Below, piece after piece: positions 1 to 8,374 of a stretch of 8,374 bases of DNA. The notes below the pieces were generated by a model. It saw only the letters and a program-made list of their open reading frames with translations. It made no database searches and had not been told where the DNA came from. The DNA is taken from IMG/VR virus record IMGVR_UViG_2690316286_000006; one strand, given 5' to 3'. Source of the DNA: a virus (Duplodnaviria > Heunggongvirae > Uroviricota > Caudoviricetes). Within the stretch, counting starts at the first letter, position 1. Each line of letters begins with the position of its first letter. The position numbers and the translations under genes are program-made.

Positions 1-30
1 AGCCGCATTCACCGCATCACAAAATTCACT

Positions 31-141
31 TTAAAAAGGGCGGACATCAGCCAGCAATGAAACTGATGCCGCCAAAATCCACTCATAAAGTTCATCATCG
101 GTATAGTCTGGCGCGATGATGACGGGTTCTCGTTTCTGCAT
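31..141 (-). CDS. small hypothetical prophage protein (36 aa, MQKREPVIIAPDYTDDELYEWILAASVSLLADVRPF)
   Basis: ATG at 139-141 (minus) preceded by GAGGAA at about 6 nt; stop TAA at 31-33. It is the C-terminal part of the 90-aa ORF in the track, whose upstream part reads as low-complexity out-of-frame overlap with the neighbouring gene. Below the 60-aa cut-off of the track. Confidence 0.4.
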   Translation of the reverse strand: MQKREPVIIAPDYTDDELYEWILAASVSLLADVRPF

Positions 142-169
142 ACTGATTCCTCGCGTGCTGTTTCGCTTA

Positions 170-298
170 TCAGCCGTTAGATTTTGCCGAACTGGAAAGC
201 GCCTGTTTAAATTCGCTGAAGCTGAGAGCTTCTTCGCCTTCGGCAAGGCCTTCGAAGTATTCTTCGTAAGCCTTTTCCATGATTGTGTCGAAATCCAT
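170..298 (-). CDS. small acidic hypothetical prophage protein (42 aa, MDFDTIMEKAYEEYFEGLAEGEEALSFSEFKQALSSSAKSNG)
   Basis: ATG at 296-298 (minus), 1 nt after the stop of the upstream 51-aa gene (translational coupling); stop TGA at 170-172. Size and position recall the small ydaF/ydaG-type genes flanking the Rac repressor, but I cannot confirm identity from memory. Confidence 0.45.
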   Translation of the reverse strand: MDFDTIMEKAYEEYFEGLAEGEEALSFSEFKQALSSSAKSNG

Positions 299-299
299 A

Positions 300-455
300 T
301 CACTCACCTGAGTTTCTTTCCAGCCAGCGACGCGCGCCAGCTTCGGTTTTAAACGTTTTGCTTTTGGTATAAGTCATGGCGGTGAACGTTCCATCCTGGT
401 TGGGGAACACGCCACATACCAGAGATTCGTTGTTGCCAAGATCGATAGTATTCAT
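300..455 (-). CDS. small hypothetical prophage protein (51 aa, MNTIDLGNNESLVCGVFPNQDGTFTAMTYTKSKTFKTEAGARRWLERNSGE)
   Basis: ATG at 453-455 (minus) with GAGG 6 nt upstream; stop TGA at 300-302. Not in the ORF track because it is under 60 aa. Confidence 0.5.
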   Translation of the reverse strand: MNTIDLGNNESLVCGVFPNQDGTFTAMTYTKSKTFKTEAGARRWLERNSGE

Positions 456-599
456 GTTGACCTCATTTCCCCTTAACGCCGGGTGGCGGAACTAAAACCT
501 GCTGCACTGCAAAATTTGAACCCTGCCGTCATGTTCTTACGCCTCGGGCTGGCTACTTAACCCCTGACCACTGCCTGGTAACTCGAAGTATTGCCCTGC

Positions 600-727
600 G
601 TTCTGTGGGGCGGGGTGGGTTGATGGATACAATCTACAAATTAAAATTTAATTGGTCAATATATTTATTATTAAATTTGTAATTGCGAACGATTGCATTA
701 GTCCCAAAATGGGACTATCATGCAGTT
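600..727. promoter_or_regulatory. AT-rich promoter/operator region upstream of higB
   Basis: AT-rich tract 630-690 between divergently oriented genes. Inverted half-sites TACAAAT (635-641) and ATTTGTA (675-681). 14-mer TTAAATTTGTAATT (671-684) identical to 1913-1926. Perfect inverted repeat GTCCCA-AAA-TGGGAC at 701-715, 13 nt before the higB ATG. No convincing -35/-10 pair could be pinned down by eye. Confidence 0.45.
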
Positions 728-1030
728 ATGAAGATCATCTCAGTTAAAACACTCAGGGATTTTTGGGCGGAGAATCCCGATGCAGAACAACCGCTAAGGG
801 CATGGGTGGATGAGGCAGCAAAAGCTGACTGGAAAAGCCCGGCAGACATTAAGGCACAATACCGAACGGCTAGTATATTGAAAAGCCGGCGTGTGGTATT
901 CAACATAAAAGGTAATCATTACCGTTTAATTGTTGCAATTGCGTATCAGCGAGGATGGGTATTTGTTAAATTCATCGGAAGCCACAAGGAATACGATGCC
1001 ATTGATGCTGATACCATCGAACTGGAGTAA
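728..1030 (+). CDS. higB: type II toxin HigB (RelE/ParE-fold mRNA interferase, YgjN-type), 100 aa
   Basis: Translation MKIISVKTLRDFWAENPD...VVFNIKGNHYRLIVAIAYQRGWVFVKFIGSHKEYD aligns from recall with E. coli HigB (VFN...HKEYD C-terminal motif, N-terminal MxxIxxKxLxD). Toxin-first order with antitoxin 2 nt downstream. The track ORF starts at TTG 683; the ATG at 728 matches the homologue N-terminus. Confidence 0.85.
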   Translation: MKIISVKTLRDFWAENPDAEQPLRAWVDEAAKADWKSPADIKAQYRTASILKSRRVVFNIKGNHYRLIVAIAYQRGWVFVKFIGSHKEYDAIDADTIELE

Positions 1031-1032
1031 GC

Positions 1033-1392
1033 ATGAACATCAAACCTATTCGTACAGAGCAAGATTATGAAGCCGCGTTGCGTGCTGTTGAGCCTATGTT
1101 CGACAATGAACCGGAAATTAACACGCCTGAGGGGGATTTCTTTGAGGTGATGTGTTTGCTAATAGAGGAATATGAAAAAAAACATTATCCCATTGAGCCA
1201 CCATCCCCAATTGAAGCTATAAGATTTCGCATGGAACAGCAGGGGCTGACCGTGAAAGATTTGGAACCCGCAATTGGGAAAAAAAATCGGGTTTACGAGG
1301 TGTTGAATGGCACCAGAAGCCTTACGTTACCAATGATTCGCCGTCTTCATAATCAATTTGGTATCCCCTTGGAAAGCTTGGTGGGATTATAA
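1033..1392 (+). CDS. higA: HigA antitoxin, HTH (XRE-type) DNA-binding protein, 119 aa
   Basis: ATG 2 nt after the higB stop; GGAG inside the higB 3' end acts as SD. C-terminal ...RSLTLPMIRRLHNQFGIPLESL matches the HigA HTH region (compare E. coli HigA ...LTLEHAKKLATRFGISPALF, recalled). Confidence 0.85.
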   Translation: MNIKPIRTEQDYEAALRAVEPMFDNEPEINTPEGDFFEVMCLLIEEYEKKHYPIEPPSPIEAIRFRMEQQGLTVKDLEPAIGKKNRVYEVLNGTRSLTLPMIRRLHNQFGIPLESLVGL

Positions 1393-1418
1393 AATCTGCT
1401 AGTCATTTGCCTGATACT

Positions 1419-1436
1419 CGTTCCAGAAAAGGAACG
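1419..1436. terminator. hairpin between convergent higA and repressor genes (candidate bidirectional terminator)
   Basis: Perfect 6-bp stem CGTTCC/GGAACG with 6-nt loop AGAAAA, 26 nt after the higA stop and abutting the repressor stop (1439-1441). A T-run (1446-1457) exists but is 10 nt away and inside the repressor gene, so the intrinsic-terminator call is weak. Confidence 0.3.
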
Positions 1437-1438
1437 CA

Positions 1439-1831
1439 TCAGGCAGTTTTGTTTTTCTGCCGCAGTAACTCTTCAAGTTTTCGTTTATAGAAATCGCGTT
1501 TTTGCTCCATATCTCGAATGATCTGCTCTGCGTCGCTTTGAGGTAACTCATCTAAAAGCGATATGATTTTTCGTTGCTGTTCTGTAAGTTGCGGTTGGTT
1601 GTCATTAGTGGATACAGCCATCTTATCGCCGAGAGCTTCTTCTTCCATAAAGAACCAATGGACGGGATGTTGTGAGAGCTCTGCTAATTTTTCCAGTTTA
1701 TCCATTCTTGGCATCACGCCTTTCAACCAACCTTGCACGGATTGGGGTTTTACACCAAGACGTCTTCCCAGCTCTGACTGGTTTATATTCAATTCCTGCA
1801 ACACCTGCTGAAGGCGTTTTACAAAGATCAT
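1439..1831 (-). CDS. prophage repressor, XRE/Cro-CI family HTH protein (RacR/CI-like), about 130 aa
   Basis: HTH signature NINQSELGRRLGVKPQSVQGWLKG near the N-terminus; charged helical C-terminal part; no S24 peptidase-like motif evident. Divergent from a Cro-like gene across a 126-bp AT-rich spacer. Start taken as ATG 1829-1831 (minus); the GTG at 1835-1837 is an alternative. Confidence 0.8.
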   Translation of the reverse strand: MIFVKRLQQVLQELNINQSELGRRLGVKPQSVQGWLKGVMPRMDKLEKLAELSQHPVHWFFMEEEALGDKMAVSTNDNQPQLTEQQRKIISLLDELPQSDAEQIIRDMEQKRDFYKRKLEELLRQKNKTA

Positions 1832-1837
1832 CACCAC

Positions 1838-1957
1838 CCCTCGAAAACTAATCTCGCAATTCTACAGAAAAAATTGATAAGTGGCATTACAAATAGAAGT
1901 TGAAATTTAAAATTAAATTTGTAATTATCGATGCCATCGTAAAGTTTGGAGGGAAAC
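1838..1957. promoter_or_regulatory. divergent promoter/operator region between repressor and ydaS (PRM/PR analogue)
   Basis: AT-rich spacer between divergent HTH genes. Inverted half-sites TACAAAT (1888-1894) and ATTTGTA (1917-1923). Rightward candidate -35 TTGAAA (1900-1905) with -10 near 1922-1928; leftward -10-like TAGAAT on the minus strand (plus 1859-1864). SD GGAGGG at 1948-1953 before the ydaS ATG. Promoter hexamers are by-eye guesses. Confidence 0.5.
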
Positions 1958-2230
1958 ATGCAAAAAAGTACTCAAATAAAAATCCTGTCGATAATGAGCC
2001 AATCAGAATTAGGGCGTCGTCTTGGTAAAACTCCACAAACCATAAGTGGGTGGTTTAAAAAACGAGTTCCTGCGGAGGAGGTTATTCCTGCATGTGAGGC
2101 GCTTGACTGGGGAGTGACTCCGCATGAATTGCGCCCTGATAAATACCCTAACCCGACCGACGGTTTACCTGTTGGATGTAAGGTTAACAGATCAAATGAA
2201 CCGGAGTTGATTCATGAAAATCAGGCATGA
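1958..2230 (+). CDS. ydaS: Cro-like HTH regulator, YdaS family, 90 aa
   Basis: ATG 1958 with GGAGGG SD 5 nt upstream (track ORF starts at TTG 1946). HTH SQSELGRRLGKTPQTISGWFKK and the conserved ...ELRPD... motif recalled from E. coli YdaS. First gene of the rightward operon. Confidence 0.8.
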   Translation: MQKSTQIKILSIMSQSELGRRLGKTPQTISGWFKKRVPAEEVIPACEALDWGVTPHELRPDKYPNPTDGLPVGCKVNRSNEPELIHENQA

Positions 2231-2639
2231 ACACATCCGCATGGCGATGAATACCTGGGCGCATCCGGACGGTGAGAAAGTACCGGCTGCAGAGATTACC
2301 AAAGCGTATTTTGAACTGGGAATGACGTTTCCGGAGCTGTACGACGATTCACATCCGGAAGCCCTGGCTCGCAATACTCAGAAAATTTTCCGCTGGGTGG
2401 AGAAAGACACCCCTGATGCAGTTGAAAAAATTCAGGCGTTGTTACCAGCGATCGAAAAGGCAATGCCACCTTTGCTGGTGGCCAGAATGCGCAGCCACAG
2501 TTCAGCTTATTTTCGGGAGCTGGTGGAGACGCGGGAACGACTGGTGAGAGATGCTGATGATTTTGTCGCAGTGGCGATCGCCGGTTTCAACCAGATGAAT
2601 CGTGGTGGCCCGGCGGGAAATGCCGTGGCTGTACATTGA
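2214..2639 (+). CDS. ydaT: YdaT-family protein (toxic early protein of Rac-like prophages), 141 aa
   Basis: Begins MKIRHEHIRMAMN..., matching the N-terminus of E. coli YdaT as I recall it. GGAG SD at 2203-2206; overlaps the ydaS 3' end by 17 nt. The reading frame is confirmed in-window: against the divergent copy at 3540-3857 most differences are synonymous third-position changes. Confidence 0.85.
   Translation: MKIRHEHIRMAMNTWAHPDGEKVPAAEITKAYFELGMTFPELYDDSHPEALARNTQKIFRWVEKDTPDAVEKIQALLPAIEKAMPPLLVARMRSHSSAYFRELVETRERLVRDADDFVAVAIAGFNQMNRGGPAGNAVAVH
2474..2526 (+). other. two Chi octamers (5'-GCTGGTGG-3') 45 bp apart within ydaT
   Basis: Exact GCTGGTGG at 2474-2481 and 2519-2526, same orientation. 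The duplicate block has the second octamer at 4392-4399; the divergent allele keeps only one (CCGCTGGTGGCT, around 3697-3704). Confidence 0.6.
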
Positions 2640-2649
2640 GGAAGCATTA

Positions 2650-3381
2650 ATGAAATCATCGACGCTTGAGAAAAACCAGAAGGTTTTCAGCCCCTTTAAT
2701 AAAAATCTCGGGGGAGTGAAATTCGTAAAGACCATCAACAGAATAACTACCGCAATTTTCGCATGCCTTCTCATATGCCATGAAGGCATGGCTGAGTCTT
2801 CGCGCTTTCCTGGCGCTAAGCATTCTTTCGAGTTCAGCGATATCACGCGGGCTAATTTGCACTATGTTGAGAAGCCCTTTTCTGGCAAGGTTAATTTTTT
2901 GCATCAATTCGGCCGCGATAGGATCTGCGATTGCGTTGAATTCCTTGCGTCTGTCCCTGTTTACTGCCAGCCAATGACCGAAACAGATACCCAACCCAAA
3001 GGTAATCACGGTCCATATGAACGAAATGAGAGCTGGATTCGTATTGAACAAGGTAACAAATTCACTCCAGATAGTATCCATGGTTCTCGCCGATTACTCC
3101 TGGTTCTGCTGGCTGGCGCTGTGATTGTATTTCCGTCAGGGGTTTACTTTGGTCTAAAGGCAGTATGCAGACGTGATTATGCCCGAAGACGTTATACAGG
3201 GAAAGCACCGGTTCTTGGTGTTCTTTCAGTCCTGGTAATCCCGAAGAAAGTGAAATGTCGCAGATGGCAGATCTGGGAGCAGCGTCAATGGTTCCGTGAT
3301 ATGAACCTTAGTCACGGTATTGATATTGCGTACCAGGATACCCGGAACTGGAAAAAACTGGTAGCGGAGCGCTGGTATTAA
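2650..3381 (+). CDS. hypothetical protein, 243 aa (ORF X), in accessory cassette between ydaT and the initiator; coding status uncertain
   Basis: ATG 2650 with GAGGAAG SD 5 nt upstream, 10 nt after the ydaT stop; stop TAA 3379-3381 lies 2 nt before the initiator ATG (operon-like packing). The last 100 codons (3082-3381) lie outside the minus-strand ORF and use CTG-rich Leu codons. Against: W, C and R content is unusually high, and the ORF is in exact antisense register with the 141-aa minus ORF. The track ORF starts at GTG 2602 inside ydaT. Confidence 0.4.
   Translation: MKSSTLEKNQKVFSPFNKNLGGVKFVKTINRITTAIFACLLICHEGMAESSRFPGAKHSFEFSDITRANLHYVEKPFSGKVNFLHQFGRDRICDCVEFLASVPVYCQPMTETDTQPKGNHGPYERNESWIRIEQGNKFTPDSIHGSRRLLLVLLAGAVIVFPSGVYFGLKAVCRRDYARRRYTGKAPVLGVLSVLVIPKKVKCRRWQIWEQRQWFRDMNLSHGIDIAYQDTRNWKKLVAERWY
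2656..3081 (-). CDS. hypothetical membrane-anchored protein, 141 aa (N-terminal TM helix ALISFIWTVITFGLGICFGHWLAV, charged helical C-terminal domain); coding status uncertain
   Basis: ATG at 3079-3081 (minus); stop TGA at 2656-2658, 16 nt from the ydaT stop (convergent). Protein-like layout with one hydrophobic helix followed by amphipathic charged segments. Candidate -10 TACAAT on the minus strand (plus 3124-3129). The SD is weak or distant (AGGAG 15 nt upstream). Frequent AGA/AGG Arg and CTT/CTC Leu codons. Exact antisense register with ORF X. Confidence 0.4.
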   Translation of the reverse strand: MDTIWSEFVTLFNTNPALISFIWTVITFGLGICFGHWLAVNRDRRKEFNAIADPIAAELMQKINLARKGLLNIVQISPRDIAELERMLSARKARRLSHAFMAYEKACENCGSYSVDGLYEFHSPEIFIKGAENLLVFLKRR

Positions 3382-3383
3382 TT

Positions 3384-3529
3384 ATGGCTACTTCATGGCT
3401 CAGATTATGGCATGACATGCCAAATGATCCCAAGTGGCGAACAATTTCCAGGGTGTCAGGGCAGCCAATCGCAACGGTGATGGCGGTTTATGTTCACCTT
3501 CTGGTGAGTGCGTCACGAAATGTCACGAC
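3384..3529 (+). CDS. O-like replication initiator, N-terminal fragment cut by N-gap (MATSWLRLWHDMPNDPKWRTISRVSGQPIATVMAVYVHLLVSASRNVT...)
   Basis: ATG 3384 two nt after the ORF X stop. Identical to 5257-5402. Ends in the first two GTCACG iteron copies (3512-3527) before the gap. Confidence 0.6.
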
Positions 3530-3539
3530 NNNNNNNNNN
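3530..3539. other. assembly gap (10 N)
   Basis: Run of n. Sequence on either side belongs to different genes (initiator 5' part, then ydaT 3' part), so it is a scaffold join, not a small sequencing hole. Confidence 0.95.
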
Positions 3540-3857
3540 ATGACGTTTCCGGTTCTGCATAACGACAGCAAGCACAACACGCTTTATCTCAACACCCAAA
3601 AGATTTTCCGTTGGCTGGATAAAGACACCCCTGACGCTGTTGAAAAAATTCAGGCGTTGTTACCTGCGATCGAAAGGGCAATGCCACCTCCGCTGGTGGC
3701 TCGAATGCGCAGCCACAGTTCAGCTTATTTTCGGGAACTGGTGGAGACGCATGAACGACTGGTGAGAGACGCTGATGATTTTGTCGCAGTGGCAATCGCC
3801 GGTTTCAATCAGATGAACCGTGGTGGCCCGGCAGGAAATGCTGTGGCAGTACATTGA
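3540..3857 (+). CDS. ydaT: ydaT-like gene, 3' fragment (C-terminal 105 aa) of a divergent allele/paralogue; 5' end lost in gap
   Basis: MTFPVLHNDSKHNTLYLNTQKIFRWLDKDTPDAVEKIQALLPAIERAMPPPLVARMRSHSSAYFRELVETHERLVRDADDFVAVAIAGFNQMNRGGPAGNAVAVH parallels ydaT residues 37-141 with mainly synonymous DNA changes in the conserved part; stop TGA 3855-3857. Confidence 0.65.
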   Translation: MTFPVLHNDSKHNTLYLNTQKIFRWLDKDTPDAVEKIQALLPAIERAMPPPLVARMRSHSSAYFRELVETHERLVRDADDFVAVAIAGFNQMNRGGPAGNAVAVH

Positions 3858-3928
3858 CTGACAATAGCCATATCGAATCGCTCCCGGCAACTCGTGAGTA
3901 AAAAGATTCGGTATCAGAAGAGGTGAGT

Positions 3929-4370
3929 ATGGCTAACGCCTGGCTCAGATTATGGCATGACATGCCAAATGACCCTAAGTGGCGAACAATTGCCAGGGTG
4001 TCAGGGCAGCCAATTGCAACAGTGATGGCAGTGTATATCCACCTCCTGGTGAGCGCGTCACGAAATGTCACGCGAGGTCACATTGATGTCACGACAGAAG
4101 ATTTGGCAAGTGCGCTCGACGTGACAGAAGAGGTAATTGATTCAATTTTGCAGACGATGCAGGGGCGGGTACTTGATGGTGATTTAATCACTGGATGGGA
4201 AAAACGCCAGGTGCTTAAAGAGGACAACGGCAATATTTCGCAAACCGCAAAATCTCCTGCAGAGCGCAAGAGGGCGCAGCGAGAGAGGGAAAGAAAGCGG
4301 GAACAAAATGGCGATTGTCACGGCGCGTCACGAAATGTCACGCACATGTCACGACGAGTCACGACAGATA
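3929..4370 (+). CDS. O-like replication initiator, divergent allele, 5' part (MANAWLRLWHDMPNDPKWRTIARVSGQPIATVMAVYIHLL...); 3' end lost in gap
   Basis: ATG 3929 with GAGGTG upstream, 71 bp after the ydaT-like stop and with no cassette in between. Homologous to 5257 onwards with mostly third-position differences. Contains iteron clusters at 4057-4093 (4 copies) and 4317-4363 (5 copies). Confidence 0.65.
4057..4093 (+). repeat. iteron cluster 1 of the divergent allele: 4 direct GTCAC(G/A) copies at 10-11 bp spacing
   Basis: GTCACG at 4057, 4067 and 4088, GTCACA at 4077. The corresponding cluster in the other allele (5385-5442) has 6 copies. Confidence 0.7.
4317..4363 (+). repeat. iteron cluster 2 of the divergent allele: 5 direct GTCACG copies at 10-11 bp spacing
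   Basis: GTCACG at 4317, 4327, 4337, 4348 and 4358; near-identical to 5819-5865. Confidence 0.7.
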
Positions 4371-4381
4371 NNNNNNNNNNN
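4371..4381. other. assembly gap (11 N)
   Basis: Run of n. Joins the initiator mid-gene to the ydaT 3' end, so it is a scaffold join. Confidence 0.95.
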
Positions 4382-4512
4382 ATTTTCGGGAGCTGGTGGA
4401 GACGCGGGAACGACTGGTGAGAGATGCTGATGATTTTGTCGCAGTGGCGATCGCCGGTTTCAACCAGATGAATCGTGGTGGCCCGGCGGGAAATGCCGTG
4501 GCTGTACATTGA
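4382..4512 (+). CDS. ydaT: ydaT 3' fragment, exact duplicate of 2509-2639
   Basis: Identical by eye to the end of the full ydaT gene; start of the redundant block 4382-5402. Confidence 0.6.
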
Positions 4513-4522
4513 GGAAGCATTA

Positions 4523-5254
4523 ATGAAATCATCGACGCTTGAGAAAAACCAGAAGGTTTTCAGCCCCTTTAATAAAAATCTCGGGGGAGTGAAATTCGTA
4601 AAGACCATCAACAGAATAACTACCGCAATTTTCGCATGCCTTCTCATATGCCATGAAGGCATGGCTGAGTCTTCGCGCTTTCCTGGCGCTAAGCATTCTT
4701 TCGAGTTCAGCGATATCACGCGGGCTAATTTGCACTATGTTGAGAAGCCCTTTTCTGGCAAGGTTAATTTTTTGCATCAATTCGGCCGCGATAGGATCTG
4801 CGATTGCGTTGAATTCCTTGCGTCTGTCCCTGTTTACTGCCAGCCAATGACCGAAACAGATACCCAACCCAAAGGTAATCACGGTCCATATGAACGAAAT
4901 GAGAGCTGGATTCGTATTGAACAAGGTAACAAATTCACTCCAGATAGTATCCATGGTTCTCGCCGATTACTCCTGGTTCTGCTGGCTGGCGCTGTGATTG
5001 TATTTCCGTCAGGGGTTTACTTTGGTCTAAAGGCAGTATGCAGACGTGATTATGCCCGAAGACGTTATACAGGGAAAGCACCGGTTCTTGGTGTTCTTTC
5101 AGTCCTGGTAATCCCGAAGAAAGTGAAATGTCGCAGATGGCAGATCTGGGAGCAGCGTCAATGGTTCCGTGATATGAACCTTAGTCACGGTATTGATATT
5201 GCGTACCAGGATACCCGGAACTGGAAAAAACTGGTAGCGGAGCGCTGGTATTAA
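4523..5254 (+). CDS. ORF X, exact duplicate of 2650-3381
   Basis: Offset of +1873 relative to the first copy; the track shows identical translations. Confidence 0.4.
   Translation: MKSSTLEKNQKVFSPFNKNLGGVKFVKTINRITTAIFACLLICHEGMAESSRFPGAKHSFEFSDITRANLHYVEKPFSGKVNFLHQFGRDRICDCVEFLASVPVYCQPMTETDTQPKGNHGPYERNESWIRIEQGNKFTPDSIHGSRRLLLVLLAGAVIVFPSGVYFGLKAVCRRDYARRRYTGKAPVLGVLSVLVIPKKVKCRRWQIWEQRQWFRDMNLSHGIDIAYQDTRNWKKLVAERWY
4529..4954 (-). CDS. 141-aa membrane-anchored hypothetical protein, exact duplicate of 2656-3081
   Basis: Offset of +1873; identical translation in the track. Confidence 0.4.
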   Translation of the reverse strand: MDTIWSEFVTLFNTNPALISFIWTVITFGLGICFGHWLAVNRDRRKEFNAIADPIAAELMQKINLARKGLLNIVQISPRDIAELERMLSARKARRLSHAFMAYEKACENCGSYSVDGLYEFHSPEIFIKGAENLLVFLKRR

Positions 5255-5256
5255 TT

Positions 5257-5524
5257 ATGGCTACTTCATGGCTCAGATTATGGCATGACATGCCAAATGA
5301 TCCCAAGTGGCGAACAATTTCCAGGGTGTCAGGGCAGCCAATCGCAACGGTGATGGCGGTTTATGTTCACCTTCTGGTGAGTGCGTCACGAAATGTCACG
5401 ACATGTCACGACGTGTCACGACGTGGTCACATTGATGTCACGACAGAAGATTTGGCAAGTGCGCTCGACGTGACAGAAGAGTCAATTGATTCAATTTTGC
5501 GGGCAATGCAGGGGCGGGTACTTG
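5257..5524 (+). CDS. O-like replication initiator, 5' part (N-terminal domain plus iteron-encoding linker); interrupted by N-gap
   Basis: ATG 5257 two nt after the ORF X stop. N-terminus MATSWLRLWHDMPNDPKWRTI... conserved against the 3929 allele with synonymous differences. Contains iteron cluster 5385-5442. Initiator assignment rests on position upstream of the P-like gene and on the internal iterons, not on recognised homology to lambda O. Confidence 0.65.
5385..5442 (+). repeat. iteron cluster 1: 6 direct GTCAC(G/A) copies at 10-11 bp spacing (candidate ori element inside the initiator gene)
   Basis: GTCACG at 5385, 5395, 5405, 5415 and 5437, GTCACA at 5426. Helical-turn phasing. Encodes ...SRNVTTCHDVSRRGHIDVTT... 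in the initiator frame. Confidence 0.7.
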
Positions 5525-5597
5525 NNNNNNNNNNNNNNNNNNNNNNNNNNNNNNNNNNNNNNNNNNNNNNNNNNNNNNNNNNNNNNNNNNNNNNNNN
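5525..5597. other. assembly gap (73 N)
   Basis: Run of n. The last about 78 bp before the gap and the first about 80 bp after it are two variants of the same segment (EDLASALDVTEESIDSILRAMQGRVL versus EDLASALDVTEEVIDSILQTMQGRVL), so the join duplicates sequence. Confidence 0.95.
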
Positions 5598-6243
5598 AGA
5601 AGATTTGGCAAGTGCGCTCGACGTGACAGAAGAGGTAATTGATTCAATTTTGCAGACGATGCAGGGGCGGGTACTTGATGGAGATTTAATCACCGGATGG
5701 GAAAAACGCCAGGTGCTTAAAGAGGACAACGGCAATATTTCGCAAACCGCAAAATCTCCTGCAGAGCGCAAGAGGGCGCAGCGAGAGAGGGAAAGAAAGC
5801 GGGAACAAAATGGCGATTGTCACGGCGCGTCACGAAATGTCACGCACATGTCACGACGAGTCACGACAGATACAGATAAAGATACAGATAAAGAAGATCA
5901 AAACACTATGGTCCATGGCGTAAAAAACGCCACGAACCAGGCAGGGGATGTTCAGACCGTCAATCCTGGTCAGCCAGCAGGCTCGACACCGGAAGCCGAT
6001 TCAGCGTATGCGCTGAAAGCCGATTCGGGCGCTGTGCAGCAGGTGATGACCGCAAGGCCGGAGCAATCACTCCAACTGCAGCAGCCTGAAGCCGATTCCG
6101 CCATTCAGCGGGAAGCCGATCGGGTAGCCCCGGAAAACACCGGGCAGCCTGTGGGACGAGTGGATTATCCGGATGTGTTCGAACAGGTCTGGCGGGAATA
6201 CCCGTTGCGTGCCGGGGCAAACCCGAAGAAATCCGCATTCAGT
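5598..6243 (+). CDS. O-like replication initiator, middle part (linker with iteron cluster 2, low-complexity PEADSA repeats, start of a C-terminal domain ...DYPDVFEQVWREYPLRAGANPKKSAF); bounded by gaps
   Basis: Continuous open frame; 5' part nearly identical to 4096-4370 of the divergent allele. Motif W-x-x-YP-x-R-x-G is reminiscent of C-terminal domains of phage replication initiators (recollection, not checked). Confidence 0.55.
5819..5892 (+). repeat. iteron cluster 2 (5 GTCACG copies at 10-11 bp spacing) followed by a tandem 12-mer GATACAGATAAA x2
   Basis: GTCACG at 5819, 5829, 5839, 5850 and 5860; 12-mer at 5869-5880 and 5881-5892 (encodes DTDKDTDK). The same 12-mer-derived sequence restarts the scaffold after the big gap (6557-6577). 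Confidence 0.7.
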
Positions 6244-6556
6244 NNNNNNNNNNNNNNNNNNNNNNNNNNNNNNNNNNNNNNNNNNNNNNNNNNNNNNNNN
6301 NNNNNNNNNNNNNNNNNNNNNNNNNNNNNNNNNNNNNNNNNNNNNNNNNNNNNNNNNNNNNNNNNNNNNNNNNNNNNNNNNNNNNNNNNNNNNNNNNNNN
6401 NNNNNNNNNNNNNNNNNNNNNNNNNNNNNNNNNNNNNNNNNNNNNNNNNNNNNNNNNNNNNNNNNNNNNNNNNNNNNNNNNNNNNNNNNNNNNNNNNNNN
6501 NNNNNNNNNNNNNNNNNNNNNNNNNNNNNNNNNNNNNNNNNNNNNNNNNNNNNNNN
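6244..6556. other. assembly gap (313 N)
   Basis: Run of n. The flanks are in different reading frames and the right flank restarts at the GATAAAGATACAGATAAAGAA repeat already seen at 5872-5892, so continuity across the gap is unknown. Confidence 0.95.
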
Positions 6557-7138
6557 GATAAAGATACAGATAAAGAATTAAACCCCACACATAACGCGCG
6601 CGTGCGCGAGAGTGCTCCGACCAGCGAGTCGAACGGTACGCCGTTGCAGGTGGCGGAACCTGAATTTCCGGACGGCCTGAGTGAACCCATCGGGAAATTT
6701 CCGATGACCGATGGCTGGCATCCGTCGCCGGATTTTCGACGGCGGGCTGCATTGTGGGGAGTGGCTCTGCCGGAGCCGGAATTTACACCTGCTGAACTTG
6801 CCGCATTCCGGGATTACTGGATGGCGGAGGGCAAAGTGTTCACGCAGGTTCAGTGGGAGCAGAAATTCGCCCGTCACGTAAATCACGTCAGGGCACAGGT
6901 CAAACCAGTCAGCAAGGGGGGCAGCCATGCAGCAGCACCAGGTGGCACCGCATCACGGGCAGTTCAGGAAATTCGGGCAGCACGTGAGCAGTGGGAACGT
7001 GAAAACGGATTTATCAGCGACGGAAACGGCCTGGAAGCTGTGGGAACTCATGGGGGAGGTTTATTCGAACCGCTGGACCCGGAAGAACGGAGCCGCACCT
7101 TCGAAGCTCTGGATTGCACAGATTGGCGCGATGACTGA
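6557..7138 (+). CDS. O-like replication initiator, C-terminal part (or an alternative version of it); contains ...[36 protein letters not shown]... motif
   Basis: Open frame from the gap edge to TGA 7136-7138. Overlaps the P-like gene by 212 nt, so the last about 70 codons may be overlap rather than conserved initiator sequence. Confidence 0.5.
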
Positions 7139-7592
7139 GCAGCAAATCCGGCAGGTCTGCCGCCAGTGCATGGAGCGTTGTCGGGCGGGTGAAACATGGC
7201 CTCCGGACCTGGCTGAGTTTGTGGCGCTGATTTCGGAAAGCGGAGCCAATCCATTCGGTCTGACGGTGGATGCCGTGATGGAAGAGTACCGTCGCTGGCG
7301 CAATGAGTCCTGGCGATACGACGGGAGCGATAAATACCCGTGGCCCCAGCCCGTGCTGTATCACATCTGCCTCGAGATGCGTTCAAAAGGGATTGAGCGG
7401 CAGATGACCGAAGGGGAGTTAAAACGACTTGCAGAACGGCAACTGACGAAATGGGCAAAGCATGTTGGTAATGGCTTCAGTGTTCCGCCCATCCGGCGAC
7501 AACTGGCAGGACCAAAACGTCCTGCGGGACCAACGCCAATTGAGTTGCTGAAACAGGAGTATGAACGCCGGAAAGCGGCTGGTTTTGTTTGA
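6927..7592 (+). CDS. lambda P-like replication protein (DnaB helicase loader family), 221 aa
   Basis: ATG 6927 with AAGGGGGG SD 5 nt upstream. Residues about 36-200 parallel lambda P as I recall it ([11 protein letters not shown] versus PSPGQFVAWC; [21 protein letters not shown]...[17 protein letters not shown] versus YPDAESYPWKSNAHYWLVTNLY...ELRRKAADELVHMTARI). Alternative start ATG 7050. Confidence 0.75.
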
Positions 7593-7626
7593 GTTGAGAA
7601 GTGATTTTTACCGGGAGAAAAATTTT

Positions 7627-7839
7627 ATGGAGACCGTTTTTGACGCACTGAAAGCAATGGGAAAAGCCTCTTCACAGGAAGTTGCAGCACGCCTGGGCAT
7701 GACCCGGGATGAAGCAATCAACGAGCTGTGGAAACTGAAGCGTCGGGGTGAGGCAGACAACAAAGGCCCGATGTGGTGGCTGACATCCGGCGATGAGGAA
7801 AAACAGGCCGGGTATCGTGAAACCCCGTTGTGGATTTAA
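7627..7839 (+). CDS. small hypothetical phage protein, 70 aa (METVFDALKAMGKASSQEVAARLGMTRDEAINELWKLKRRGEADNKGPMWWLTSGDEEKQAGYRETPLWI)
   Basis: ATG 7627 with GGGAG 9 nt upstream, 35 nt after the P-like stop. The track ORF from 7561 overlaps the P-like 3' end and its first 22 residues look like read-through. Possible small winged-helix-like protein (guess). Confidence 0.55.
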   Translation: METVFDALKAMGKASSQEVAARLGMTRDEAINELWKLKRRGEADNKGPMWWLTSGDEEKQAGYRETPLWI

Positions 7840-8138
7840 TCCCACAGAGAGGGACTGAGAGTGAAAAAACAGCCAGACAGGAAGCGTCCGGAACAGAAAA
7901 CACGGGTCAGCATGCAGATGTGACAGAAGTTGTTCAGCCAATCCCTGCGTTTACTGAAAAACAGCAGGATTATGTGATTCTGCCATCACTGCATGCGGCA
8001 AACCGTGAGCTGCGCCGGGCAAAAGGTCAGGTCCAGAAGTGGGAGCGTATCTGCGCCGCGCTACGGGAGCTGAATAAACACCGGGACGTTGTCCGGCAGA
8101 TTGTCGACTCTTCCCGCCGTGTTGCATCGGAAAAGTGA
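7830..8138 (+). CDS. hypothetical phage protein, up to 102 aa; start uncertain (GTG 7830 or GTG 7920)
   Basis: Only long ORF in this interval; no in-frame ATG. N-terminal 30 residues are low-complexity. The C-terminal part ...LRRAKGQVQKWERICAALRELNKHRDVVRQIVDSSRR looks helical and protein-like. Overlaps the previous gene by 10 nt if the GTG at 7830 is used. Confidence 0.4.
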   Translation: MDLIPQRGTESEKTARQEASGTENTGQHADVTEVVQPIPAFTEKQQDYVILPSLHAANRELRRAKGQVQKWERICAALRELNKHRDVVRQIVDSSRRVASEK

Positions 8139-8153
8139 TTGCCGGAGGCGCTT

Positions 8154-8374
8154 ATGGCAAAAGTATTTACACAGGAAGAGCGGGAAAAATTAAAGGGGCG
8201 GGTTGTTGAACTTGTACGTCTTAGCGGTCGCGAGACGTTACGGCAACTGGAAGCGAAAACAGGTGCGACAAGATATCTGTTGAGCGTTCTCGCCAGAGAG
8301 CTGGTTGCCAGTGGTGATGTATACAACTCTGACTACGGGTTATTTCCCTCTGAACAGGCTCGTAAGGACTGGCA
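8154..8374 (+). CDS. hypothetical phage protein, 5' part (MAKVFTQEEREKLKGRVVELVRLSGRETLRQLEAKTGATRYLLSVLARELVASGDVYNSDYGLFPSEQARKDW...), runs off the window
   Basis: ATG 8154 with GGAGG SD 5 nt upstream, 15 nt after the previous stop; open to the end of the window. Not in the ORF track because no stop is reached. Confidence 0.5.
   Translation, partial: MAKVFTQEEREKLKGRVVELVRLSGRETLRQLEAKTGATRYLLSVLARELVASGDVYNSDYGLFPSEQARKDW

What the first reader, a model, noticed from the sequence alone, without database searches (positions are those of the whole stretch)
2509..6556. Scaffold is partly redundant and chimeric: an exact 1021-bp duplicate and a divergent allele are joined by N-runs
Block 2509-3529 is repeated exactly at 4382-5402. 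Between them, 3540-4370 is a divergent copy of the same ydaT-initiator junction without the cassette. The 73-N join duplicates about 80 bp in variant form on both sides. The 313-N join restarts at the 12-mer repeat and changes reading frame. This is what an assembler produces when two related prophages, or a strain mixture, collapse into one graph bubble. Gene copy number, the length of the initiator and the apparent tandem arrangement here should therefore not be taken as biological.
Basis: seen in the sequence. Interest (0 to 1): 0.5.

Follow-up and report, generated by a model that had tools for sequence, protein, structure and literature searches.

The report
Mis-scaffolded prophage region, false duplication
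The apparent tandem repeat is an assembly artefact: pieces of two related prophage replication regions of a Shigella sonnei draft genome were interleaved into one scaffold, so the extra gene copies are not biological.

Summary
The window is the whole public record CXCS01000171.1 (8374 bp, assembly GCA_001260675.1, proteins labelled Shigella sonnei). Four N-runs split it into five blocks: A 1-3529, B 3540-4370, C 4382-5524, D 5598-6243 and E 6557-8374.

A, C and E match one locus ("allele 1") at 99.9-100%. That locus is single-copy and 5661 bp long in complete genomes: ydaT, a 744-bp cassette, a 346-aa initiator, then P. A and C are overlapping contigs that were never merged. The 1021-bp exact repeat ends at one gap edge and restarts at another.

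B and D belong to a different locus ("allele 2"), a Qin-like prophage remnant found across S. sonnei assemblies. It has no cassette, and B and D overlap there by 275 bp.

The scaffold therefore alternates 1-2-1-2-1, and every novel junction is hidden in Ns. D is also a base-level mosaic seen in no other record. Seven of eight internal block ends lie at short exact stretches shared by the two alleles.

I cannot tell whether the two alleles are two prophages in one isolate or a mixed sample. Interest is low. The cassette's real gene, an unnamed 141-aa minus-strand family, is a separate lead.

The parts
1..3529 (.). Block A, an allele-1 contig. Genes: ydfB/DUF1391 (minus), HigB 728-1030, HTH antitoxin 1033-1392, repressor 1439-1831 (minus), YdaS/Cro-like 1958-2230, YdaT 2214-2639, cassette 2640-3383, initiator 5' end 3384-3529.
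   Evidence: 99.97% over 3529 bp to L001 6001-9529. Pfam hits; annotation.
2509..3529 (.). First copy of the exact 1021-bp repeat. It is the 3' end of contig A and ends flush against the 10-N run.
3530..3539 (.). 10-N scaffold gap joining allele 1 (initiator iterons) to allele 2 (middle of ydaT'). This is a false join.
   Evidence: The Ns are present in the public record. The flanks map to different loci.
3540..4370 (+). Block B, an allele-2 contig: ydaT' 3' part 3540-3857, 71-bp spacer, initiator' 5' part 3929-4370. There is no cassette.
   Evidence: 100% over 831 bp to L003-L008, L011 and L013-L015. Only 85-90% to allele 1.
4371..4381 (.). 11-N scaffold gap joining allele 2 (end of the second iteron cluster) back to allele 1 (ydaT 3' end). 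This is a false join.
4382..5524 (.). Block C, an allele-1 contig that overlaps A. 4382-5402 repeats 2509-3529; only 5403-5524 (122 bp of initiator) is new sequence.
   Evidence: 100% over 1143 bp to L001 8509-9651, which is a single place in that locus.
5525..5597 (.). 73-N scaffold gap joining allele 1 to an allele-2-type block. The same 80 bp lie on both sides in variant form.
5598..6243 (+). Block D, the allele-2 initiator' middle. It overlaps B by 275 bp. It is a mosaic: sites 5682 (A) and 5694 (C) carry the allele-1 state in an allele-2 background.
   Evidence: 99.7% to allele-2 loci. Alignment A1. Its 55-mer is found only in this record, while 16 allele-2 loci carry the B state and 13 allele-1 loci carry the 24-nt core. 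The 46-mer is absent from genome contigs and viral contigs.
6244..6556 (.). 313-N scaffold gap joining allele 2 to allele 1. The true distance from the end of C to the start of E in allele 1 is 191 bp.
6557..8374 (+). Block E, an allele-1 contig: initiator 3' part 6557-7138 (DnaT domain), P-like 7131-7592, split DUF1627 7627-8138, DUF977 5' end 8154-8374.
   Evidence: 99.95% to L001 9843-11661. Pfam hits.
5383..5443 (+). Iteron-like cluster RTGTCACGA inside the initiator gene (allele 1, five units). Partial or variant copies lie at 3510-3528, 4055-4094, 4325-4364 and 5827-5866. Contigs A and B end in these clusters.
   Evidence: 19 matches against 3.0 expected, and 0 of 200 shuffles reach 19. 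Contig-end analysis.
2656..3081 (-). The cassette's real gene: 141 aa with an N-terminal transmembrane helix, antisense to the early-right operon. It is duplicated artefactually at 4529-4954.
   Evidence: Substitutions peak at the third position of the minus frame. Homologues; same position in Klebsiella and Enterobacter prophages.

Best explanation
The interval is a scaffolding artefact in a short-read draft assembly labelled Shigella sonnei. The sample held two paralogous lambdoid replication modules.

The two loci:
- Allele 1 is a Rac-like prophage: ydaT, a 744-bp cassette, a 346-aa DnaT-domain initiator with internal iterons, then P.
- Allele 2 is a Qin-like remnant found across S. sonnei assemblies: ydaT', a 354-aa initiator', then a DnaC-like loader. 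It has no cassette.

How the artefact arose (inferred): the alleles share many exact stretches of 17-57 nt, and contigs broke at these stretches and at the iteron and 12-mer repeats. A read-pair scaffolder then threaded the fragments of both loci into one linear order, A(1)-B(2)-C(1)-D(2)-E(1), and filled the impossible joins with Ns.

Consequences (shown): A and C are overlapping contigs of one locus that were never merged, which gives the exact 1021-bp repeat. B and D are overlapping contigs of the other locus. D also picked up two allele-1 bases.

The true structures are:
- A + 5403-5524 + 191 missing bp + E, which is 5660-5661 bp with one cassette and one intact initiator.
- Elsewhere, a locus containing B merged with D.

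Shown: the mapping of the blocks, the single-copy state elsewhere, and the mosaic in D. Inferred: the assembler's behaviour, and whether the two alleles sit in one chromosome or in two mixed strains.
For: 1. The window is identical to record CXCS01000171.1, Ns included. Its proteins are labelled Shigella sonnei.
2. A, C and E map collinearly, with A and C overlapping, onto one 5661-bp locus at 99.9-100% in complete genomes. The reconstruction differs from that reference by 1 SNP and 1 homopolymer base and restores the 346-aa initiator.
3. A cassette 60-mer occurs twice only in this record and once in each of 14 other loci. All 10 long-contig contexts are single-copy.
4. B is 100% identical to allele-2 loci, where B and D form one contiguous sequence next to different neighbours (DnaC-like, not P).
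5. The 1021-bp repeat begins and ends exactly at N-run edges, and no sequenced base supports any novel junction.
6. Seven of eight internal block ends lie in, or within 2 nt of, an exact stretch of at least 18 nt shared by both alleles. B's left end coincides, within 1 nt, with the ends of two independent Logan contigs.
7. D carries allele-1 bases at 5682 and 5694 in an allele-2 background. Its 55-mer occurs in no other locus, and C stops 4 nt before that patch.
8. Related modules occur at a median of 2 and up to 9 places per E. coli genome, so paralogous copies in one genome are normal.
9. This class of error is documented: duplicate contigs placed at adjacent positions by mate links (PMC2864568), and greedy SSPACE/GapFiller steps that can make false joins (PMC5320598).
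Against: - No reads were available, so coverage and mate-pair consistency were not examined.
- The comparison genomes are other strains, not this isolate.
- D's right end (6243) is not at a stretch shared by the two alleles, so some other cause broke that contig.
- The shared stretches flanking D's mosaic patch are only 20-23 nt. That is short for a de Bruijn path switch at usual k values, so the exact mechanism of the mosaic is unclear.
- The assembly pipeline could not be identified.
Confidence: 0.93

Rival explanations
1. A genuine tandem or nested duplication in this isolate. The replication module was duplicated and recombined with a second allele, and the N-runs are only short unsequenced stretches.
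For: The two shortest gaps are only 10 and 11 N, and the blocks share one orientation and gene order. Recombination between lambdoid prophages is common (established knowledge).
Against: - The repeat boundaries coincide to the base with gap edges.
- The gaps would have to join the initiator iterons to mid-ydaT', and the initiator' to mid-ydaT, yet none of these junctions is sequenced.
- B and D, which are one sequence elsewhere, sit 1.2 kb apart and overlap by 275 bp with 2 mismatches.
- The reading frames disagree across the gaps.
- Fourteen other allele-1 loci and 16 other allele-2 loci are single and contiguous.
Confidence: 0.02
2. The same artefact, but caused by a mixed sample. S. sonnei carrying allele 2 was contaminated with an EIEC or other E. 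coli strain carrying allele 1, rather than two prophages sitting in one chromosome.
For: - The allele-2 YdaT' is listed in 6106 blocks, including 100 with contigs over 1 Mb, and is named Shigella.
- The exact allele-1 proteins are seen on only about 450-470 contigs, and the names sampled are E. coli O28ac or 'MULTISPECIES Enterobacteriaceae'.
- The best allele-1 matches among complete genomes are E. coli strains.
- No record appeared in both top lists.
Against: - The record is an isolate assembly.
- Allele-1 loci in long contigs are riddled with IS600, IS4 and IS1, as in Shigella or EIEC, so a Shigella host is plausible.
- Only the 24 blocks with the longest contigs were read in each look-up, so co-residence was not really tested.
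- Several related modules per genome is the norm.
Confidence: 0.3
3. The Ns are masking added by the data provider over real sequence, and the redundancy is real sequence context.
For: One tool description says that some stretches of one collection are masked as N.
Against: The locus fetched from the NCBI record is identical to the window, with the same N-runs. The N-runs sit exactly at allele switches.
Confidence: 0.01

Closest known systems
False segmental duplications from divergent copies assembled separately and both placed in a scaffold (Kelley & Salzberg 2010, PMC2864568; Ko et al. 2022, PMC9516828)
   Same: Two versions of one region become separate contigs. Mate links place them at adjacent positions, which gives the illusion of a duplication next to gaps. 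False extra gene copies follow.
   Different: Here the two versions are paralogous prophage modules, or two strains, in a haploid bacterium at 85-90% identity, not the haplotypes of a diploid. The exact 1021-bp repeat is an unmerged contig overlap rather than an allelic copy.
Greedy scaffolding and gap filling of bacterial short-read assemblies (Velvet + SSPACE + GapFiller; Page et al. 2016, PMC5320598)
   Same: N-runs of estimated length between contigs joined by read pairs. The authors state that these greedy steps can make false joins. Extension of contig ends into a wrongly placed gap would recreate sequence already present.
   Different: I could not show that this assembly came from that pipeline. 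The accession was not found in the paper's held supplements.
Lambda-type replication module (O-like initiator with the origin iterons inside its own gene, followed by P) in Rac/Qin-like prophages
   Same: The initiator has a DnaT-like domain and matches PHROG replication-initiation families. Iteron-like RTGTCACGA repeats about 10 bp apart lie inside the gene. A lambda-P-family gene lies downstream. ydaS and ydaT lie upstream.
   Different: Allele 1 carries a 744-bp antisense cassette between ydaT and the initiator. No match among the 50,697 phage records covers that cassette. Origin function was not tested.

Membership tests
False duplication by mis-scaffolded or unmerged contigs | Duplicate copies abut assembly gaps, and their ends coincide with contig ends | tested here: met
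   Copy 1 ends at 3529 next to the 10-N run. Copy 2 starts at 4382 next to the 11-N run. The repeat cannot be extended.
False duplication by mis-scaffolded or unmerged contigs | The region is single-copy and contiguous in independent, better assemblies | tested here: met
   Single copy in L001, L002, L009, L010 and L016-L025. Allele 2 is contiguous in 16 loci.
False duplication by mis-scaffolded or unmerged contigs | Interleaved blocks derive from different source loci or alleles | tested here: met
   A, C and E are 99.9-100% to allele 1. B is 100% and D 99.7% to allele 2, and both are only 85-90% to allele 1.
False duplication by mis-scaffolded or unmerged contigs | Read depth and mate pairs fit one copy, and no reads cross the novel junctions | not testable with these tools
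   No read data were accessible.
Genuine tandem duplication | A sequenced novel head-to-tail junction | tested here: not met
   All four candidate junctions are N-runs.
Genuine tandem duplication | Repeated units that are collinear copies of one another, with consistent reading frames | tested here: not met
   The units differ: one has the cassette and one lacks it, and they are different alleles. B and D overlap out of order. The frame shifts across the 313-N run.
Lambda-type O/P replication module | Initiator protein family, iterons within the gene, and a P-family partner downstream | tested here: met
   PF17948 DnaT domain (3.2e-18), phrog_1408 replication initiation (2.7e-112) and PF06992 Phage_lambda_P (1.7e-15). 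Iterons: 19 found against 3.0 expected. Function was not tested.

The most novel reading that the evidence does not exclude
The scaffolder's links reflect real proximity. In this S. sonnei isolate an incoming allele-1 phage would have recombined into, or next to, the resident allele-2 remnant. The result would be a genuine composite locus with two replication modules, two cassette copies and a patch of gene conversion (the allele-1 bases in D).
Probability: 0.02. Interest if true: 0.3.

Novelty: not a real feature. Interest (0 to 1): 0.07.

Why it matters
The value is mainly cautionary. The artefact has already produced database entries that look like genes:
- a second 243-aa 'hypothetical protein';
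- a 42-aa YdaT stub;
- a 163-aa gene call that runs across an N-run;
- a 193-aa 'partial' initiator, WP_252861209.1, seen on this one contig only.

Any analysis of copy number, initiator length, iteron number or cassette duplication from this record would be wrong. The corrected reading is one ydaT-cassette-initiator-P locus plus one separate cassette-less locus. That is the structure to use for any other finding in this window.

Tried and rejected
- I scanned genome contigs and viral contigs for D's 46-mer to find a natural source of that variant. Neither gave a match.
- I searched papers for the assembly and WGS accessions, with no result. The supplements of Page et al. 2016 did not list them either, so the assembler remains unknown.
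- I tried to show that both alleles sit in one chromosome by comparing the record lists of the allele-1 and allele-2 look-ups. The lists do not overlap, but each look-up read only the 24 blocks with the longest contigs, so this is uninformative.
- A look-up of the 70-aa DUF1627 fragment, meant to find sister genomes, returned only this record.
- For the cassette, Pfam, PHROGs, PADLOC, NCBIfam and PDB sequence and fold searches gave no annotation.
- I considered that the N-runs were provider masking. I rejected this because the NCBI record carries the same Ns.
Full report
**Observation.** The window has four N-runs: 3530-3539, 4371-4381, 5525-5597 and 6244-6556. They cut it into five blocks:
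- A, 1-3529
- B, 3540-4370
- C, 4382-5524
- D, 5598-6243
- E, 6557-8374

Block 2509-3529 equals 4382-5402 with 0 mismatches in 1021 bases. The repeat cannot be extended, because copy 1 ends at an N-run and copy 2 starts at one. The repeat finder also shows three further points:
- B is a 90% copy of the ydaT 3' end and an 84-88% copy of the initiator 5' end.
- 4096-4370 (B) recurs at 5598-5872 (D) with 2 mismatches.
- The same 80 bp lie on both sides of the 73-N run, with 5 differences.

E starts with a 21-mer identical to 5875-5895, and the initiator frame differs on the two sides of the 313-N run.

**Source.** An exact-protein look-up of the truncated YdaT' encoded at 3540-3857 returned NCBI record CXCS01000171.1 of assembly GCA_001260675.1. 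The record is 8374 bp long and identical to the window, Ns included. The window is therefore a whole public scaffold, and the Ns are not provider masking. Proteins from this scaffold are labelled Shigella sonnei.

**What the blocks are.**
- *Allele 1.* In complete E. coli genomes the best matches span only 5661 bp. In strain RMDEC364 (locus L001), A maps to 6001-9529 at 99.97%, C to 8509-9651 at 100% and E to 9843-11661 at 99.95%. A and C therefore overlap in a single place, and 191 bp between C and E are missing from the window.
- *Gene order there.* HigB, HTH antitoxin, repressor, YdaS-like, YdaT, one 'hypothetical protein' (the cassette), a 346-aa DnaT-domain initiator, then replication protein P.
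- *Reconstruction.* Joining A + 5403-5524 + the borrowed 191 bp + E gives 5660 bp. It differs from the reference by one SNP and one homopolymer base, and it restores the intact 346-aa initiator.
- *Copy number.* A cassette 60-mer occurs once in each of 14 other loci and twice only in this record. Ten long-contig contexts of the cassette protein all show a single copy.
- *Allele 2.* B and D are only 85-90% identical to allele 1. B is 100% identical, and D 99.5-99.7%, to six IMG/VR contigs, a 4.8-Mb S. sonnei contig, two Logan contigs and a sister assembly. One further IMG/VR contig (L007) matches D at only 96%. In these loci B and D are one contiguous sequence without the cassette, followed by a DnaC-like loader rather than P.
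- *Where allele 2 lives.* It sits in a Qin-like remnant between ynfF and ydfI, flanked by IS1. Its YdaT' is listed in 6106 blocks of the collection, including 100 with contigs over 1 Mb.
- *Result.* The scaffold alternates allele 1-2-1-2-1, and each of the four N-runs joins different loci.

**Signs of an assembly tangle.**
- Seven of the eight internal block ends fall inside, or within 2 nt of, an exact stretch of at least 18 nt shared by the two alleles. These include the iteron 18-mer GCGTCACGAAATGTCACG, the 27-mer that ends exactly at B's last base, and the 24-mer over the GATAAAGATACA repeat where E begins.
- B's left end coincides, within 1 nt, with the ends of two independent Logan contigs.
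- D is a base-level mosaic. At 5682 and 5694 it has the allele-1 bases within allele-2 flanks.
- D's 55-mer is found in no other locus. Sixteen allele-2 loci have the B state, and 13 allele-1 loci have the 24-nt core present in D.
- D's 46-mer is absent from the genome and viral collections.
- C stops 4 nt before that mosaic patch.
- The scaffold geometry fits neither locus. The distance from C's end to E's start is 191 bp in reality but 1032 bp here. B and D overlap by 275 bp in reality but lie 1227 bp apart here.

**Explanation.** The interval is a mis-scaffold. Overlapping contigs of two paralogous replication modules were threaded into one linear order, and no sequenced base supports any novel junction.

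This matches the documented class of false duplications, in which divergent copies are assembled separately and placed at adjacent positions by mate links (PMC2864568). It also fits the acknowledged greediness of SSPACE and GapFiller in high-throughput bacterial pipelines (PMC5320598). I could not establish which pipeline made this record.

I put a genuine tandem duplication at about 2%.

**Open point.** I could not decide whether the two alleles are co-resident prophages or a mixed sample.
- For co-residence: several related modules per genome is normal, with a median of 2 and up to 9 places.
- For a mixture: allele 1 is much rarer than allele 2, and the names sampled for its exact proteins are E. 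coli O28ac or 'MULTISPECIES Enterobacteriaceae'.

Either way the layout is artefactual.

**Side results.**
- *The cassette's real gene.* It is the minus-strand 141-aa ORF at 2656-3081. Substitutions against Enterobacter, Klebsiella and a distant E. coli relative peak at its third codon position: 75 of 138, 51 of 83 and 30 of 48. The ydaT control peaks at its own third position.
- *The public annotation.* The 243-aa plus-strand protein is largely a shadow ORF in the codon-aligned antisense frame. It is fused to a truly conserved plus-strand piece at 3082-3381.
- *The family.* It has 177 representative clusters and no Pfam, NCBIfam, PHROG, PADLOC or PDB match. The AlphaFold model is confident (pLDDT 95) and mostly helical, with no PDB fold relative. 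In all five prophage contexts examined the gene is transcribed against the neighbouring genes on one or both sides. Its function is unknown.
- *Iterons.* The initiator gene carries iteron-like RTGTCACGA repeats, 19 against 3.0 expected.

**Verdict.** The tandem arrangement is not a real feature. Interest is low, apart from the warning that the artefact's products are now in protein databases.

Noticed in passing
window 2656-3081 (minus strand); artefactual duplicate at 4529-4954: The cassette's real gene is a 141-aa minus-strand ORF with an N-terminal transmembrane helix, not the annotated 243-aa plus-strand protein (WP_001300539.1). Substitutions against three relatives peak at the minus-frame third position. 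The family has 177 representative clusters but no Pfam, NCBIfam, PHROG, PADLOC or PDB match. The AlphaFold model has pLDDT 95 and no PDB fold match. The only viral structure hit is Q8W646, at 42% identity. In the five prophage contexts examined, relatives are transcribed against the neighbouring genes on one or both sides, a moron-like layout.
   Followed up: yes
window 3082-3381 (plus strand): The 3' third of the annotated 243-aa ORF appears to be truly coding on the plus strand. It is about 65% identical to the Enterobacter copy by eye, shares the motif RRWQIWEQRQWFRDM and has a predicted transmembrane helix; 44 of 93 substitutions fall at its third position. Its start is unclear: ATG at 2976 here against a Val codon in Enterobacter at the same place would overlap the minus gene. 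The Klebsiella aerogenes loci lack this part.
   Followed up: partly
window 3510-3528, 4055-4094, 4325-4364, 5383-5443, 5827-5866: Iteron-like repeats RTGTCACGA about 10 bp apart, all on the plus strand inside the initiator gene copies. There are 19 matches against 3.0 expected. Allele 1 has 21 bp (two units) more than allele 2 in the first cluster. This is probably the phage origin, as in lambda O.
   Followed up: partly
window 663-684 and 1905-1926: A 22-nt direct repeat ATTTAWWATTAAATTTGTAATT (91% identical) lies on either side of the HigB/antitoxin + repressor block: one copy upstream of higB, the other between the repressor and the cro-like gene (family D9). These may be OL/OR-type operator regions.
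   Followed up: no
window about 7816-7825 (homopolymer CCCC): This record has C4 where the reference locus has C5. This splits the DUF1627 ORF into 70-aa and 102-aa pieces. The 70-aa product is found in no other contig of the collection. It is probably a sequencing or assembly error.
   Followed up: partly
window 3929-4420, 4382-4512, 4523-5254, 6557-7138: Gene calls created by the artefact are in public collections: a 163-aa ORF running across the 11-N gap, a 42-aa YdaT stub, a second 243-aa cassette protein, and a 193-aa 'partial' initiator (WP_252861209.1) seen on this contig only.
   Followed up: yes
L015 (CWUY01000450.1, sister assembly GCA_001260435.1) 924-1126: A sister assembly carries allele 2 alone on its own 1574-bp scaffold. 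It has a 203-N gap starting just after the 12-mer repeat, where the true distance is about 256 bp. The same repeat breaks contigs there, and the gap sizes are only rough estimates.
   Followed up: partly
window 2640-3383 compared with the phage collection: Among 50,697 phage records the matches cover ydaT and the initiator start but skip the cassette: 652 bp in the record against 1325 bp of query. The cassette-less junction is therefore the common state, and the cassette is an insertion confined to a few prophages.
   Followed up: partly
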